64,000 nucleotides of DNA from the NCBI GenBank assembly GCA_041666045.1, contig JBAYHR010000003.1, forward strand, positions 2,208-66,207. Direction: 5' to 3'. This DNA is from Minisyncoccota bacterium (GTDB lineage Bacteria; Patescibacteriota; Minisyncoccia; Phycocordibacterales; UBA9973). The notes beneath the pieces are model-generated. The model was not told where the DNA came from. It saw nothing but the letters and a program-made list of their open reading frames with translations, and made no database searches. Made by a program: the position numbers and the translations under genes. This document shows, in pieces, positions 40,526-44,093 of the stretch (position 1 is the stretch's first letter; every line of letters begins with the position of its first letter).

Positions 40526-40834
40526 ATGTTAAAAATAAGATTACAGAGAATAGGTAGAAAAAATGATCCAGCGTTTCGTGCTGTTTTGACTGATTCAAAA
40601 AATAGTACAAAAAGCGGAAGATTTTTAGAAATAGTTGGTACTTATAATCCAAAAGCTGGGGAGACAAATTTTAAAACTGATAGAATAAAATATTGGGTTT
40701 CAAAAGGCGCTCAACTTTCTGATACTATGCACAATTTCTTAGTGCATCAAAAAGTTATAGAAGGGAAGAAGAAAAATGTATTGCCTAAGAAAAAGCCAAC
40801 TTTGAAAAGAAAGGAATTGAAAGCTAAGAAATAA
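40526..40834 (+). CDS. rpsP: 30S ribosomal protein S16 with K-rich tail
   Basis: MLKIRLQRIGRKNDPAFRAV... canonical S16 N-terminus. Confidence 0.9.
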   Translation: MLKIRLQRIGRKNDPAFRAVLTDSKNSTKSGRFLEIVGTYNPKAGETNFKTDRIKYWVSKGAQLSDTMHNFLVHQKVIEGKKKNVLPKKKPTLKRKELKAKK

Positions 40835-40908
40835 AAAGATATAATATACTGTAAGCAGTTGCTTTGGTCGGAACACTGCAATGATTAAAAATATTTATTC
40901 TGAACATT

Positions 40909-41244
40909 ATGCAAGACGCTGATAAAGAATTTCTAGAATATGTAGTAAAAGCTCTTGTTGACAATCCGAACGATGTAAAACTCGATCGTACTGTTGATGA
41001 AATGGGAGTGCTAATCAGTCTTACTGTAAATCCTGCCGATATGGGTAAAATCATCGGAAGAATGGGAAATACTGCAAAGGCTATCAGAACACTTCTAAGA
41101 GTTATTGGAATGAAGAATAATGCTCGCGTTAATCTAAAGATTAACGAACCAGAAGGAAGCACAAGACCTGAAAGAACAGAAAGTTCTTCTATGAGTTCAA
41201 CAAAAACTGTTGACCAAGCTATGGAAGATTTAAAAGGAATATAG
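40909..41244 (+). CDS. KH-domain RNA-binding protein (YlqC/UPF0109 family)
   Basis: KIIGRMGNTAKAIRTLL GxxG-type KH motif. Conserved position after rpsP. Confidence 0.8.
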   Translation: MQDADKEFLEYVVKALVDNPNDVKLDRTVDEMGVLISLTVNPADMGKIIGRMGNTAKAIRTLLRVIGMKNNARVNLKINEPEGSTRPERTESSSMSSTKTVDQAMEDLKGI

Positions 41245-41262
41245 TTTTTTAAAAAAAGAGCG

Positions 41263-41335
41263 AATACAAAAGTTTTCTGGCAAGCAAAAAGAATCCAGTG
41301 CTTGCAGGCAAAAATTTTTGTATTCGCTCTTTTTG
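41263..41335 (+). terminator. long nested hairpin downstream of the KH-protein gene (terminator or structured RNA)
   Basis: Outer stem AGAGCGAATACAAAA / TTTTGTATTCGCTCT encloses a second imperfect stem (CTGGCAAGC...GCTTGCAGG), followed by TTTTTG. Confidence 0.5.
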
Positions 41336-41401
41336 TTTGACAAATTGTACAATAAAAATTAAGATAAAAGAAAAAAGTATGAACATTAAAAATTAAAAAA
41401 T

Positions 41402-42148
41402 ATGATATTAGATCTAATTTTAAAGGGTAATTTTTATGAATTAAAAATTCATAGAAAATTCTTTCAAAATGAATCAATTCCACTTGAACTTTTTCAAGAA
41501 GAAAATCAACTGACAAAAAAATATTCTTATTTGGGAATTTTTCAAATAAAAGGTAATACTTTTGGTTTTGATGGTTGTTTTGTAAAACAAAAAGGTTCTA
41601 ATGATGAATATGTAATTTACAAATTTGATTTTCCAAAATCAGAAGATGATTATTATTTGGGAATGAGAAAAATGATGCTTACTATGTATTTATCTACTTA
41701 CTATGTTGTAGAACAAATGCATTATGCAAAAGAATTTTTCAATGACACAATTTGGGACGACCAAGCATTTTCTTTTGTCATTTTTGATGGTAATAGTGGT
41801 TTTACTGGTGGTTATGCTATTGGTGGTCAAATTTATTCTTGGATTAAAAGAAAGTTGCTTGCTCTTAATGAAGAAGACTTAATAAATTTAAATAAATATG
41901 TTGAGTTTGAGGTAAATAGAATAAGTAATTATTTTTTTAAAAAAGATGCTAAGTATAGTCAAATAACCATTACTCAAAACTCCATATTTATTCAGGTAAA
42001 TATGCAAGGTAGGTGGATTTCATGGACTAATTCAAGAGATATTTTTAAAAAAGAAGAATTTAGTTCTCACAACATTGACTTTCATAGTGATCAAGAATTA
42101 TGTTTTGTTGCTATTGTTGCTATAAATACGTGGCTAAGAGAACATTAA
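41402..42148 (+). CDS. hypothetical protein (no recognisable domain)
   Basis: 248-aa ORF with its own terminator. Sits where rimM is expected. Confidence 0.5.
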   Translation: MILDLILKGNFYELKIHRKFFQNESIPLELFQEENQLTKKYSYLGIFQIKGNTFGFDGCFVKQKGSNDEYVIYKFDFPKSEDDYYLGMRKMMLTMYLSTYYVVEQMHYAKEFFNDTIWDDQAFSFVIFDGNSGFTGGYAIGGQIYSWIKRKLLALNEEDLINLNKYVEFEVNRISNYFFKKDAKYSQITITQNSIFIQVNMQGRWISWTNSRDIFKKEEFSSHNIDFHSDQELCFVAIVAINTWLREH

Positions 42149-42154
42149 TAAACT

Positions 42155-42183
42155 AAAGGGCTTCAAATGAAGCCCTTTTTTGT
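42155..42183 (+). terminator. rho-independent terminator
   Basis: AAAGGGCTTCAAATGAAGCCCTTTTTTG. Confidence 0.8.
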
Positions 42184-42252
42184 TTGACAAAATATGTGAT
42201 AAGTAGTAATCTAATTATAAATAGAGTTCTAAACAATTAAATATATAAAAAT

Positions 42253-42924
42253 ATGAAAACATTTGAATGGGTTGCTGTCATTGATAGCACTTCTAAATTC
42301 GGGAAGTTAATGAAAAGATTTTTCAAAAATAAAAATCTAAATGAAAAGATAAGATTATTTAATAAAGCAAAATTATTAAATATGTTTTTTGCCACAAAAC
42401 GTATTGCTATTTATTCAATTTGGGATAATTTTTATAATCTTAGTGGTCATACTTGTTATCGTAATGATGCTTTTTATATGGCATTTCATTGTGGTTTGCA
42501 TACACTTAATAAATATAGTTCTGGATTAATAAAGAATGGGATGTTGGGATACTTTGAAAAAGTAACTCATGATGGATTGCCACTTTTTCAACTTCTTCAG
42601 GATGAAGGATTTGTTGAAGCTGATGATCTTAAATCTGTATTAGAATCAAAAAATGGAAGATATTATTTTTTATCTCCAAAAGCTGTTTTCAAAATTGCTG
42701 AAGCTTGTAAGATGTCTAAAAAAGAAGTAGAGTGGATTGCTTTCAAGATTTGTTTTTCTTTGGTGAATTATGATTCATCACATCCATCTAGTGAGTTTGA
42801 TCTTGATTGTTCACCATCAAGAAATCATGAATTTGTGATGGAAATTGCAAACAAATATCTTTCTGTAAAGATGAAAACATTTTTAGTAGATTATCTTGAT
42901 ATAAAGATTCCAACAGAAGCATAA
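42253..42924 (+). CDS. hypothetical protein (no recognisable domain)
   Basis: 223-aa ORF with its own terminator. Between the KH gene and trmD. Confidence 0.5.
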   Translation: MKTFEWVAVIDSTSKFGKLMKRFFKNKNLNEKIRLFNKAKLLNMFFATKRIAIYSIWDNFYNLSGHTCYRNDAFYMAFHCGLHTLNKYSSGLIKNGMLGYFEKVTHDGLPLFQLLQDEGFVEADDLKSVLESKNGRYYFLSPKAVFKIAEACKMSKKEVEWIAFKICFSLVNYDSSHPSSEFDLDCSPSRNHEFVMEIANKYLSVKMKTFLVDYLDIKIPTEA

Positions 42925-42945
42925 ATGTTCAATAAGAAATTTTAC

Positions 42946-42978
42946 AAAAGTCCTCAAAATTGAGGACTTTTTATTTTT
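42946..42978 (+). terminator. rho-independent terminator
   Basis: AAAAGTCCTCAAAATTGAGGACTTTTTATTTTT. Confidence 0.8.
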
Positions 42979-43002
42979 AAATTTTTAGTCTATAGTGTTT
43001 TT

Positions 43003-43743
43003 ATGCGTTTTCATATAATTACAATTTTTCCGGAGATTTTTGACTCATATTTAACTGAGTCTATTATTGGGCGGGCTATAAAAAATAAGCATATTTCTGT
43101 TAAGTTTTATAATCCTAGAGATTATGTAAAATCTCAGAATAAGGCGAATTATAAGCCTGTAGATGATAGACCATATGGTGGAGGACCTGGAATGATAATG
43201 CGAGCTGAGCCAATTCTTAAAGCAGTAGAAAAAGCAATTTTGGTAGCTAGTAAAGTTTCCTCGGGTCCTCAGTTTGGAGCCAGACCAGCTCGGAAACTTT
43301 CTAGCCACCAAAATAAAATTTTAATTATTAATTTTGTACCAAGTGCAGAAAAATTTACTACAACTTTTGCAAAAAAAGTTTCAAAAAAATATACAGATAT
43401 TATTTTAATTTGTGGAAGGTATGAAGGTATTGATGCACGAGTAGATAAAATCCTTCGACAAGCTCAGGACAAGTTTTTAAAATTTAAAAAAATTTCAATA
43501 GGGGATTATGTATTAACTGGAGGAGAACTTCCAACGATGATTTTAGTAGATTGTATTTCTCGCCAGATTCCTGGGGTTTTAGGTAAGTATGAATCTCTGG
43601 AAGAAGAAAGAGTTTCTTCTAGTGAATTTTATACTCGCCCAGAAAAATTAGTTTATAAAGGAAAAAAATATAATGTGCCAAAAGTTTTACTTTCAGGGAA
43701 TCATCAATTGATTGAACAATGGAAAAAGTCTAGTAAAAAATAA
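43003..43743 (+). CDS. trmD: tRNA (guanine37-N1)-methyltransferase TrmD
   Basis: SPOUT knot motifs (RPYGGGPGMIMRAEPI, GRYEGIDARV, GDYVLTGGELP). Carries a ~19-aa in-frame insertion. Confidence 0.9.
   Translation: MRFHIITIFPEIFDSYLTESIIGRAIKNKHISVKFYNPRDYVKSQNKANYKPVDDRPYGGGPGMIMRAEPILKAVEKAILVASKVSSGPQFGARPARKLSSHQNKILIINFVPSAEKFTTTFAKKVSKKYTDIILICGRYEGIDARVDKILRQAQDKFLKFKKISIGDYVLTGGELPTMILVDCISRQIPGVLGKYESLEEERVSSSEFYTRPEKLVYKGKKYNVPKVLLSGNHQLIEQWKKSSKK
43247..43304 (+). repeat. in-frame palindromic element in trmD (arms CTAGTAAAGTTTCC/GGAAACTTTCTAG, GC-rich core)
   Basis: Core TCGGGTCCTCAGTTTGGAGCCAGACCAGCTC. Translated as SKVSSGPQFGARPARKLSS, inserted after the conserved GGGPGMIMRAEPI block. 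Confidence 0.75.
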
Positions 43744-43744
43744 A

Positions 43745-43777
43745 AAATCTTGAGGTTTATCTCAAGATTTTTTTAAG
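43745..43777. terminator. bidirectional terminator between trmD and the convergent ORF
   Basis: AAAATCTTGAGGTTTATCTCAAGATTTTTTT. Confidence 0.7.
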
Positions 43778-44093
43778 TTGTTGCGAATTTGTATTCTTTT
43801 TCTTTATCATAATAAAATACGTCATGCATTTTATTACTAATAATTTTTCTTATTTTTCTTTTTAATTTAAAAGAAAAAAATTGAATTTTAATATAAATTT
43901 CAATATCTCTACCTTTAATTTCTGATTTTCCTGATATTGCTTTTTTGTTTATGATAAAATTAAATTTTCCTAATTTATTTTCTTCTAAATTTAAAATTAA
44001 ATTTTTATGTTCCAATGCTGTTTCTTTTAAAAGCAAACCAAGTCTTTCAGAAATTTGTTTTTCTGAAAGAAAATGTGTGTATAATATTTTCAT
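43773..44093 (-). CDS. hypothetical protein
   Basis: 106-aa ORF convergent with trmD. No recognisable motif. Confidence 0.35.
   Translation of the reverse strand: MKILYTHFLSEKQISERLGLLLKETALEHKNLILNLEENKLGKFNFIINKKAISGKSEIKGRDIEIYIKIQFFSFKLKRKIRKIISNKMHDVFYYDKEKEYKFATT

What the first reader, a model, noticed from the sequence alone, without database searches (positions are those of the whole stretch)
41250..42980. Two unknown genes occupy the rimM slot of the conserved rpsP-KH-rimM-trmD operon
Seen in sequence:
- rpsP and the KH-protein gene are followed by a large nested hairpin.
- Next come two ORFs (248 aa and 223 aa) with no recognisable domains, each ending in its own strong terminator.
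- trmD follows, and no RimM-like sequence is present.

Inference: a two-gene module has replaced or displaced rimM inside a ribosome-biogenesis operon. It could be a lineage-specific ribosome maturation factor pair or an inserted accessory module.
Basis: partly seen in the sequence, partly recalled or inferred. Interest (0 to 1): 0.55.

Follow-up and report, generated by a model that had tools for sequence, protein, structure and literature searches.

The report
Two unrelated cargo genes, khpA–trmD gap
In this ultra-small (CPR/Paceibacterota) bacterium the two unknown genes between the KH-protein gene and trmD did not replace rimM, which the whole group lacks; they are two unrelated, separately transcribed accessory genes in an intergenic gap that holds different cargo in different relatives.

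Summary
The order is rpsP, a KhpA-like KH gene, a long nested hairpin, ORF-A (248 aa), a terminator, ORF-B (223 aa), a terminator, then trmD. Nothing RimM-like is present.

The interpretation mostly fails.
- The window is a Candidatus Paceibacterota (CPR) MAG. Published surveys report rimM as nearly absent across CPR.
- In 56 of 77 related species the KH gene abuts trmD (median gap 96 nt), so there is no rimM slot to fill.
- In 19 of 77 the gap holds unrelated cargo: NYN, PD-(D/E)XK, Cas2/PaaX-like, TSCPD, an Ig/peptidoglycan-binding protein and unknowns. The cargo always lies downstream of the KH terminator.
- ORF-A and ORF-B are unrelated and co-occur only in this genome. Each has its own promoter-like site and terminator.
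- ORF-A is a conserved Paceibacterota family (42 members, dN/dS about 0.2). It sits in this gap only in the closest relatives.
- ORF-B is a fast-evolving family (20 distant relatives) with an invariant His/Asn/Glu/Thr/His motif. Its two closest relatives occupy the same gap in a distant lineage.

Both proteins give confident structure models with no PDB match, so their functions remain unknown. This is an ordinary accessory-gene hotspot of modest interest.

The parts
40526..40834 (+). rpsP (ribosomal protein S16), conserved left flank
   Evidence: Pfam PF00886, E 2.7e-17. It is 77-98% identical in 80 related loci.
40909..41244 (+). KhpA-like KH-domain protein gene (111 aa, KH domain at residues 6-78 plus a C-terminal tail of about 30 aa). 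It forms the left border of the variable gap.
   Evidence: Pfam PF13083 KH_KhpA-B, E 1e-20. NCBIfam KH families, E 1e-18 to 1e-21.
41253..41334 (+). Long nested hairpin preceded by an A-run and followed by a T-run. It is the intrinsic (probably bidirectional) terminator of rpsP-KH, and it predates the inserted genes.
   Evidence: dG -40.1 kcal/mol, z -7.1. The same element lies in the cargo-free KH-trmD gap of 9 related species. Of 30 consensus pairs, 12 keep pairing through changes on both sides. No Rfam match.
41337..41365 (+). Promoter-like site of ORF-A: TTGACA, 17 nt, TAAGAT, starting directly after the terminator T-run.
   Evidence: 10 of 12 consensus matches. The same TTTTTGTTTGACAAAT junction precedes ORF-A in L009 and L003.
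41402..42148 (+). ORF-A, 248 aa: a soluble alpha/beta protein of a conserved, Paceibacterota-restricted family of unknown function.
   Evidence: 42 homologues at 48-100% identity, all about 244 aa. dN/dS is 0.17-0.23. The AlphaFold2 model has pLDDT 92.7 and pTM 0.91. There is no Foldseek match in PDB or BFVD, no PDB sequence match and no TM segment.
42155..42178 (+). Intrinsic terminator of ORF-A (10-bp stem, 5 GC pairs, T-run).
42184..42212 (+). Promoter-like site of ORF-B: TTGACA, 17 nt, TAATCT (weak -10). It lies within a 38-nt direct repeat of the ORF-A promoter region (41330-41367 vs 42177-42214, 74% identity, first 15 nt identical).
   Evidence: The -10 falls below the scan threshold, so it was read directly from the sequence.
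42253..42924 (+). ORF-B, 223 aa: a soluble, mostly alpha-helical protein of a sparse, fast-evolving family. Invariant residues are H66, N71, N95, Y100, E102, T105, H106 and L115; D72 is nearly invariant.
   Evidence: The word-indexed search found only the query itself. The exhaustive HMMER scan found 20 relatives at 29-46% identity (alignment). The AlphaFold2 model has pLDDT 86.8 and pTM 0.85. There is no Foldseek PDB match and no PDB sequence match.
42946..42971 (+). Intrinsic terminator of ORF-B (11-bp stem, T-run).
43003..43743 (+). trmD (tRNA m1G37 methyltransferase), right border of the variable gap.
   Evidence: Pfam PF01746, E 4.3e-35. It is 61-80% identical in 80 related loci.

Best explanation
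**What it is.** The stretch between the KhpA-like gene and trmD is an insertion-tolerant gap in a Paceibacterota (CPR) genome. rimM was lost from this lineage long ago.

**Why the gap tolerates insertions.** In this lineage rpsP-KH ends in a strong intrinsic terminator, and the gap upstream of trmD carries extended -10-like (TGnTAnnAT) sequences. DNA placed between the terminator and trmD should therefore leave both neighbours' expression intact. Different species carry different cargo there.

**What is in it here.** This genome holds two independent cargo genes. Each is a monocistronic unit with a TTGACA-type promoter directly after the preceding terminator and its own terminator.
- ORF-A entered the gap in the common ancestor of this genome and its closest relatives. 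Elsewhere in the family it lies at other loci.
- ORF-B was added later, in this genome only. It most likely arrived by recombination from an unsampled relative that carried it in the same gap.

**What the proteins do (inferred, low confidence).**
- ORF-A is a conserved cytosolic alpha/beta protein. Its invariant or nearly invariant C59, H223, D226, D230, Q231 and C234 suggest an enzyme or a ligand or metal site. Loose neighbourhood links point to phospholipid-remodelling genes.
- ORF-B is a helical protein whose invariant His/Asn/Glu/Thr/His cluster suggests a metal or catalytic site.

**Shown:** the anatomy, the family distributions, the variable gap and the absence of RimM features.
**Inferred:** the order of insertion, the recombination mechanism and the biochemical roles.
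For: **Source and rimM**
- The window is a Candidatus Paceibacterota MAG (source names).
- rimM is reported missing from most CPR genomes (PMC6744442) and nearly absent in CPR (PMC12641178).

**The gap in relatives**
- In 77 related species the median KH-to-trmD gap is 96 nt. It is 150 nt or less in 56 and over 350 nt in 19.
- The cargo in those 19 is diverse: Big_12 plus PG_binding, PaaX/Cas2-like, NYN, TSCPD, PDDEXK_3 and unknowns. Only three families recur, each in two loci, and none is RimM, ORF-A or ORF-B.
- In all 19, a hairpin plus T-run follows the KH stop before the cargo. In at least 12 of them a TTGAC motif comes next.

**ORF-A distribution**
- It lies in the gap only at 71% identity or more (L003, L007-L009).
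- At 48-65% identity it lies elsewhere.
- None of the 77 species representatives has it within 5 kb of trmD.

**ORF-B distribution**
- It is absent from L003, where the gap from ORF-A to trmD is 64 nt.
- It is absent from L009, where the sequence shows an unrelated 49-aa ORF in its place.

**Independence of the two genes**
- A terminator and a promoter-like site lie between them.
- The profiles are unrelated.

**Hairpin**
- The nested hairpin occurs in cargo-free gaps of 9 species and therefore predates the insertions.

**Both are real genes**
- ORF-A has dN/dS of 0.17-0.23.
- ORF-B has an invariant motif across 21 sequences.
Against: - The two closest relatives of ORF-B (36-38% identity) sit in exactly the same rpsP-KH-[x]-trmD position in a clearly more distant lineage (rpoB 72%, RNase R 48% identity). 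Random cargo would not be expected to do this. It points either to old vertical residence with many losses or to a functional or positional tie to this operon.
- No integrase, transposase, terminal inverted repeats or target-site duplication was found, so the insertion mechanism is not demonstrated.
- Only this 64-kb window was searched for rimM, not the whole genome.
- No function is demonstrated for either protein.
Confidence: 0.75

Rival explanations
1. One or both genes are lineage-specific ribosome or tRNA maturation factors tied to the rpsP-khpA-trmD cluster. They would be non-homologous stand-ins for the lost RimM.
For: - The position lies inside a ribosome-biogenesis cluster.
- ORF-B-family genes occupy the same gap in three distinct genome contexts spanning deep divergence: the window, L093 and L094.
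- One ORF-A homologue lies directly downstream of an RRM RNA-binding protein gene (L010).
- CPR bacteria must assemble 30S subunits without RimM or RimP (PMC6744442, PMC12641178).
Against: - 56 of 77 related species have nothing in the gap, and none of the 77 has ORF-A or ORF-B there. A needed replacement would not be this rare.
- Each gene has its own promoter-like site and terminator, and a strong terminator separates them from rpsP-KH.
- Of the 9 ORF-A homologues whose contexts were examined, 7 lie at unrelated loci.
- Other cargo in the same gap consists of nucleases, Cas2-like proteins and similar.
- There is no RimM, PRC-barrel or other RNA-binding domain signal.
Confidence: 0.07
2. ORF-A and ORF-B form one functional two-gene cassette (for example a toxin-immunity or defence pair) that was inserted as a unit.
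For: - They are adjacent, on the same strand and of similar size.
- Their upstream regions share a 38-nt similar promoter segment.
- Other cargo in the same gap includes families typical of defence or toxin-antitoxin loci: NYN, PD-(D/E)XK and Cas2-like.
Against: - They co-occur only in this genome. Relatives with ORF-A lack ORF-B, and relatives with ORF-B-like genes lack ORF-A.
- A terminator lies between them.
- There is no PADLOC hit.
- There is no hit in phage or plasmid collections or viral contigs.
- The 42 ORF-A homologues are single genes in varied contexts.
Confidence: 0.04
3. ORF-B is an ancient resident of the KH-trmD gap, inherited vertically from the common ancestor of this lineage and the L093/L094 lineage. 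It would have evolved fast and been lost repeatedly, rather than being a recent arrival.
For: - It occupies the same position in divergent lineages.
- Its divergence (36-38% identity) is not far below that of RNase R between the same genomes (48%).
Against: - It would require independent losses in essentially all 77 sampled species. These include the near-identical relative L009 (KH 98-100%, trmD 90-97% identical), which carries a different 49-aa ORF instead.
- More distant family members lie at unrelated loci, and one cluster includes a protein labelled Nanoarchaeota. This pattern suggests mobility.
Confidence: 0.14

Closest known systems
Canonical bacterial trmD operon: rpsP-(ylqC/khpA)-rimM-trmD-rplS (E. 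coli, B. subtilis; from general knowledge)
   Same: The order rpsP, KH-protein gene, trmD is kept on one strand.
   Different: - rimM is absent, as across CPR (PMC6744442, PMC12641178).
- rplS does not follow trmD. A convergent 106-aa ORF and then rpoB follow instead.
- A strong terminator after the KH gene splits the cluster into separate transcription units.
Accessory-gene integration hotspots between conserved core genes, such as the variable islets and defence-island hotspots described in enterobacterial and Pseudomonas pan-genomes (from general knowledge)
   Same: - The flanks are conserved (KH and trmD).
- The content is empty in most relatives and diverse and unrelated in others, including nuclease and Cas2-like genes.
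- Each cargo gene brings or uses its own promoter and terminator.
   Different: - The cargo is very small, one or two genes of 0.4-2.4 kb.
- No integrase, transposase or att-like repeats were found.
- There is no match to known defence systems.
- The host is a CPR bacterium, and I know of no report of such a hotspot at this junction (no literature search was made for it).
RimM (Pfam RimM N-terminal domain plus PRC-barrel C-terminal domain)
   Same: Only the genomic position relative to the KH gene and trmD.
   Different: - There is no sequence or profile similarity.
- ORF-A is predicted as mixed alpha/beta with long helices, and ORF-B as almost all-alpha. Neither is predicted as the two beta-barrel domains of RimM.
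- There is no Foldseek PDB match.

Membership tests
RimM | RimM N-terminal domain detectable by profile (Pfam PF01782) | tested here: not met
   - hmmscan at E up to 1 on ORF-A and ORF-B found none.
- None was found in the 42 ORF-A-family members or the 21 ORF-B-family members.
RimM | C-terminal PRC-barrel domain | tested here: not met
   - There is no PRC-barrel hit.
- The family profiles find nothing relevant among all PDB chain sequences at E up to 10.
RimM | Two beta-barrel domain fold | tested here: not met
   - ORF-A (pLDDT 92.7) is mixed alpha/beta with helices of 20-28 residues. ORF-B (pLDDT 86.8) is helical.
- Foldseek against PDB gives a best E of 0.03 for ORF-A and 0.32 for ORF-B, with TM 0.3 or less.
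RimM | Conserved presence between the KH gene and trmD across the lineage | tested here: not met
   - 56 of 77 related species have a gap of 150 nt or less.
- None of the 77 carries ORF-A or ORF-B there.
Co-functional two-gene module | The two genes co-occur in other genomes | tested here: not met
   - ORF-A occurs without ORF-B in L003, L009, L001, L005, L010 and L107-L109.
- ORF-B-like genes occur without ORF-A in L093, L094 and L096.
Co-functional two-gene module | Co-transcription as one unit | tested here: not met
   By sequence signals only, a terminator at 42155-42178 and a TTGACA promoter-like site lie between the genes. No expression data were available.
Accessory-gene hotspot between core genes | Conserved flanking genes with variable, unrelated content across related genomes | tested here: met
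   - 19 of 77 loci carry inserts of 0.4-2.4 kb.
- The inserts include at least five different Pfam-assignable gene types plus unknowns.
Accessory-gene hotspot between core genes | Mobility signatures (integrase or transposase, att or terminal repeats, target-site duplication) | tested here: not met
   - The only notable repeat flanking the cargo is the 38-nt promoter-region direct repeat.
- No recombinase domain was found in the gap ORFs.
- A remnant duplicate of the trmD 5' end in L014, L047 and L066 hints at past recombination at this border.
Intrinsic (rho-independent) terminator (the nested hairpin) | Stable stem-loop immediately followed by a T-run at the end of a gene | tested here: met
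   - dG -40.1 kcal/mol, z -7.1, with the T-run at 41330-41334.
- The structure is kept by compensatory changes in relatives.
- Simple GC hairpins occupy the same place in other relatives.
Known anti-phage defence systems (PADLOC) | Match to a PADLOC protein model | tested here: not met
   No hit at E up to 1 for ORF-A, ORF-B or the 106-aa neighbour.
Phage- or plasmid-borne gene | Homologues in phage, plasmid or viral-contig collections | tested here: not met
   - PHROGs gave only noise.
- IMG/VR pattern scans found none.
- tblastn against phage and plasmid collections found no match.
- BFVD fold search for ORF-A found none.

The most novel reading that the evidence does not exclude
The ORF-B family (invariant H..N, then N....Y.E..TH; D72 nearly invariant) is positionally locked to the khpA-trmD junction across deeply diverged Paceibacterota because it acts on the same pathway. 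It would be a non-homologous 30S or tRNA maturation accessory used by some rimM-less CPR bacteria. ORF-A would be a second, new-fold lineage-specific factor recruited to the same locus.
Probability: 0.06. Interest if true: 0.6.

Novelty: new member of a known kind. Interest (0 to 1): 0.25.

Why it matters
**Main value: corrective.** The missing rimM is a known, phylum-wide CPR trait. It is not a local replacement event, and the two genes should not be annotated as ribosome-maturation candidates on position alone.

**Modest positive results**
- The junction between the khpA terminator and trmD behaves as a recurrent cargo site in Nomurabacteria-like Paceibacterota. It carries nuclease-type and Cas2-like genes among others. 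This gives a defined locus for studying gene flux in CPR genomes.
- There are two uncharacterised protein families with confident structure models and no PDB analogue by Foldseek. One of them (ORF-B) has a sharply defined invariant motif and a member labelled as DPANN archaeal. These are reasonable targets for structural genomics.

Tried and rejected
**Family and profile searches**
- Pfam, NCBIfam, PHROGs and PADLOC scans of ORF-A and ORF-B gave only noise.
- The ThiJ_like hit of ORF-A (E 0.002) recurs in only 2 of 42 family members, so I rejected it as chance.
- A profile-profile comparison of the two families shows they are unrelated.
- HMMs of both families found nothing among the 75 ORFs located in the gaps of related loci.

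**Structure searches**
- Foldseek against PDB for both models, and against BFVD for ORF-A, gave no match below E 0.01 and TM 0.3 or less.
- Family profiles against PDB sequences found nothing.

**Mobile-element origin**
- Viral-contig scans and phage and plasmid tblastn found no matches.
- A repeat search for transposon-like ends or target duplications around the cargo found none.
- A search for a duplicated trmD 5' end in the window found only the gene itself.

**Other**
- Rfam found no family for the hairpin. The only hit was a sub-threshold DapZ match on the ORF-A terminator.
- The hairpin arm occurs at only one locus in the window, so it is not a dispersed repeat.
- The search for related loci with the ORF-B alignments failed because no stretch was conserved enough. 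A hand-made degenerate DNA pattern replaced it.
- Neighbourhoods of distant ORF-B relatives (L096, L100, L101, L103) showed no consistent partner.
- rimM was looked for among 20 mid-size ORFs of the window and not found.
Full report
**1. What is in the sequence**

The region reads, all on the + strand:
- rpsP, 40526-40834 (Pfam Ribosomal_S16, E 2.7e-17).
- A KhpA-type KH-domain gene, 40909-41244 (PF13083, E 1e-20).
- A long nested hairpin, 41253-41334.
- ORF-A, 41402-42148 (248 aa).
- ORF-B, 42253-42924 (223 aa).
- trmD, 43003-43743 (PF01746, E 4e-35).

The hairpin folds at -40.1 kcal/mol, which is z = -7.1 against dinucleotide shuffles. It has an A-run before it and a T-run after it.

Each ORF is followed by a terminator-like hairpin plus T-run, at 42155-42178 and 42946-42971. 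The region holds 8 such sites against 1.2 expected.

Each ORF is preceded, directly after the upstream T-run, by TTTTTGTTTGACAAA. This gives a TTGACA -35 box, then 17 nt, then TAAGAT (ORF-A) or TAATCT (ORF-B). This 15-mer occurs exactly twice in the 64-kb window, at these two places.

At about 27% GC, an open frame of 223 codons has a chance probability of about 3e-9.

**2. Where the window comes from, and rimM**

Both ORFs exist in public data as hypothetical proteins of a Candidatus Paceibacterota MAG, locus tags WC264_03025 and WC264_03030. Paceibacterota belongs to the CPR/Patescibacteria.

Two published surveys bear on rimM:
- RimM is "missing in most CPR genomes" (PMC6744442).

Within the window, 20 further ORFs of RimM-like size give no RimM or PRC-barrel hit. 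The absence of rimM is thus a known phylum-level trait, not a local event.

**3. Synteny**

A scan of one genome per GTDB species with the window's TrmD returned 80 loci of Nomurabacteria/Paceibacterota. Of these, 77 contain both the KH gene and trmD.
- The KH-to-trmD distance has a median of 96 nt.
- It is 150 nt or less in 56 loci and over 350 nt in 19.
- In the short gaps there is just a terminator hairpin followed by extended -10-like (TGnTAnnAT) sequences upstream of trmD.

The ancestral arrangement of this lineage is therefore rpsP-KH | terminator | trmD, with no gene in between.

The 19 occupied gaps hold unrelated cargo:
- a 709-aa Big_12 plus peptidoglycan-binding protein (L017);
- PaaX/Cas2-like proteins (L036, L045);
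- NYN-domain proteins (L065, L083);
- a TSCPD protein (L072);
- a PDDEXK_3 nuclease (L079);
- several unknowns.

None of these is RimM. None matches HMMs of the ORF-A or ORF-B family.

In all 19 loci, a hairpin plus T-run follows the KH stop before the cargo. In at least 12 of them a TTGAC motif comes next. The space between the KH terminator and trmD therefore behaves as a recurrent cargo site. An insertion there should not interrupt either neighbouring transcription unit (inference).

**4. ORF-A**

*Family and selection.* There are 42 homologues at 48-100% identity. All are about 244 aa and all come from Paceibacterota/Patescibacteria assemblies. Mean column identity is 62%. Invariant residues include G55, W118, W147, W205, H223, D226, D230, Q231 and C234, and C59 is nearly invariant. 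dN/dS against the two closest relatives is 0.17-0.23, which indicates purifying selection.

*Genomic context.* The gene lies in the KH-trmD gap only in the closest relatives:
- 85% identity, L007-L009;
- 71% identity, L003-L004.

Homologues at 48-65% identity lie elsewhere:
- between an RRM-protein gene and the ATP synthase operon (L010);
- beside a methyltransferase gene (L001);
- among glycosyltransferase genes (L109);
- in three cases within 0.2-4 kb of a patatin, PLD-like and UvrA gene group, once also next to an acyltransferase gene (L005, L107, L108).

*Structure.* The AlphaFold2 model is confident (pLDDT 92.7, pTM 0.91) and mixed alpha/beta with long helices. Searches found no relatives:
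- Foldseek against PDB, best E 0.03 and TM 0.16;
- Foldseek against BFVD, none;
- family profile against PDB sequences, none.

*Other properties.* The protein is soluble and acidic. It is absent from phage, plasmid and viral collections.

*Conclusion.* ORF-A is a real, conserved, lineage-restricted gene of unknown function that moved into this gap in a small sub-clade.

**5. ORF-B**

*Family.* The word-indexed search found only the protein itself. An exhaustive HMMER scan of 1.8 billion representatives found 20 relatives at 29-46% identity. The alignment shows a sharp invariant signature: H66, N71, then N95, Y100, E102, T105, H106 and L115. D72 is nearly invariant. The consensus reads HxCYxND...NGxxGYFExxTHxG.

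*Structure.* The model (pLDDT 86.8, pTM 0.85) is mostly helical. It has no PDB match by fold or by sequence.

*Closest relatives.* The two closest (36-38% identity) lie in exactly the same place, rpsP-KH-[x]-trmD. They belong to a clearly more distant lineage: rpsP 61%, trmD 60-63%, RNase R 48% and rpoB 72% identical to the window. The 80 close relatives show rpoB at 71-94%, mostly 82% or more.

*More distant members.* These lie at unrelated loci: after a 658-aa ParB_N protein gene, or between rpsL and an M50 peptidase gene. One cluster contains a protein labelled Nanoarchaeota archaeon.

*Absence from near relatives.* ORF-B is missing from the window's nearest relatives. L003 has a 64-nt gap from ORF-A to trmD. 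In L009 the sequence shows an unrelated 49-aa ORF there.

**6. Are they a pair?**

No.
- The profiles are unrelated (hhalign probability 1.4%).
- The two genes never co-occur outside this genome.
- A terminator and a promoter-like site separate them.

**7. The hairpin**

The same nested hairpin lies in the cargo-free KH-trmD gap of 9 related species, once in inverted orientation (L076). Its outer stem sequence is AGAGCGAATACAAAA. Of 30 consensus pairs, 12 keep pairing through changes on both sides.

Other relatives have simple GC-rich hairpins at the same place. The hairpin has no Rfam match and occurs at only one locus in the window.

It is best read as one of several interchangeable rpsP-KH terminators that predate the insertions. 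An additional role cannot be excluded.

**8. Most likely history and mechanism**

*Shown:*
- rimM is absent from the lineage.
- The gap is empty in most relatives and holds diverse cargo in others.
- ORF-A and ORF-B are independent units.

*Inferred:*
- ORF-A was placed in the gap in the ancestor of the window, L009 and L003.
- ORF-B was added downstream of it in this genome only. It probably arrived by recombination through the conserved khpA and trmD flanks, from an unsampled donor that carried it in the same gap.
- The repeated terminator-promoter junction (15 identical nt, 38 nt at 74% identity) may have provided microhomology.
- A relic copy of the trmD 5' end next to a conserved 38-nt insert in L014, L047 and L066 shows that this border has recombined before.

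*Biochemical roles are guesses:*
- ORF-A may be a Cys/His/Asp-bearing enzyme or ligand-binding protein, possibly linked to phospholipid remodelling. The support is neighbourhood in 3 of 9 contexts, which is weak.
- ORF-B may be a helical protein with a His/Asn/Glu/His metal or catalytic site.

**9. Rivals**

- *RimM substitute or ribosome factor.* This is disfavoured by the rarity of the genes (0 of 77 relatives), by their own transcription signals and by the varied loci of ORF-A. It is kept alive only by the repeated positional association of ORF-B (probability about 0.06-0.07).
- *Single two-gene cassette.* This is essentially refuted by the lack of co-occurrence.
- *Ancient vertical residence of ORF-B with many losses.* This is possible but unparsimonious, given its absence from a near-identical relative.

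**10. Verdict**

The headline interpretation, that rimM was replaced by a two-gene module, is not supported.

This is an ordinary accessory-gene hotspot in a rimM-less lineage. It carries two uncharacterised protein families without detectable structural relatives. Interest is low to moderate.

Noticed in passing
window 41253-41334; L013 4891-4980, L023 4896-4986, L031 916-1005, L034 4874-4963, L058 4900-4989, L061 4902-4988, L071 4900-4989, L076 1051-1140 (inverted), L091 2942-3032: The nested hairpin after the KH gene is a conserved element of about 80 nt shared by 9 other species. It shows compensatory changes in both the outer and inner stems, and one species (L076) carries it flipped. The CTGG before the inner stem could also pair with the CCAG in the loop, giving a possible pseudoknot or alternative fold. 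It has no Rfam family.
   Followed up: partly
L003 5793-5896; KH-trmD gaps of L024, L031, L034, L075, L090, L021, L042, L069: Runs of 7-nt tandem repeats flank the KH terminator in several relatives: (GGTTATA)n, and CTATAAG/CTATAAC-type or TAGGCxC-type units. In some loci they form inverted arrays on both sides of the hairpin. The window has none, and their function is unknown.
   Followed up: no
L014 4940-5000; L066 4938-5000; L047: A relic copy of the trmD 5' end (ATGCRTTTTCATATAATTACC) is followed by a conserved 38-nt GC-rich insert and then the real trmD start, which uses different codons. It looks like a scar of recombination or integration at the trmD border, or a short upstream ORF that mimics the TrmD N-terminus.
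   Followed up: partly
window 43243-43320 and 43453-43482 (TrmD residues about 87-106 and 151-160): TrmD carries two in-frame, locally GC-rich inserts (ASKVSSGPQFGARPARKLSS and RQAQDKFLKF). They are present in some relatives and absent in others.
   Followed up: partly
window 43773-44093 (-): A 106-aa ORF convergent with trmD shares a bidirectional terminator with it (43742-43773). A similar small minus-strand ORF recurs after trmD in L003 (116 aa), L014, L018 and L093. It has no family hit.
   Followed up: partly
L013-L092, trmD to rpoB junction: The junction downstream of trmD is also variable. The distance to rpoB ranges from about 0.1 kb to 3.9 kb among relatives, so trmD is flanked by two variable junctions.
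   Followed up: no
P0047 cluster (member P0069 = MAG45144.1): One ORF-B-family cluster includes a protein labelled Nanoarchaeota archaeon (marine MAG). This suggests the family is shared between CPR bacteria and DPANN archaea, provided the binning is right.
   Followed up: no
L005 833-5859, L107 4948-8735, L108 1-3876: ORF-A homologues lie near a patatin, PLD-like (PLDc_2) and UvrA gene group in three rearranged contexts. A VIT1 gene is also present in two of them, and a PlsC-type acyltransferase gene in one. This may hint at a link to lipid remodelling, or it may just be residual synteny.
   Followed up: partly
L009 1116-1265: In the closest relative, a 49-aa ORF (MKEKIIEILKSNSDSLVIEQ...) with its own terminator occupies the place held by ORF-B in the window (read directly from the sequence).
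   Followed up: no
window 40824-41516 (-): A 230-aa TTG-initiated antisense ORF overlaps the KH gene, the hairpin and the start of ORF-A. It is almost certainly spurious, given the conserved genes on the + strand.
   Followed up: no
window 40909-41244: The KhpA-like protein has a C-terminal tail of about 30 residues, low in complexity (NEPEGSTRPERTESSSMSSTKTVDQAMEDLKGI), beyond the KH domain at residues 6-78.
   Followed up: no
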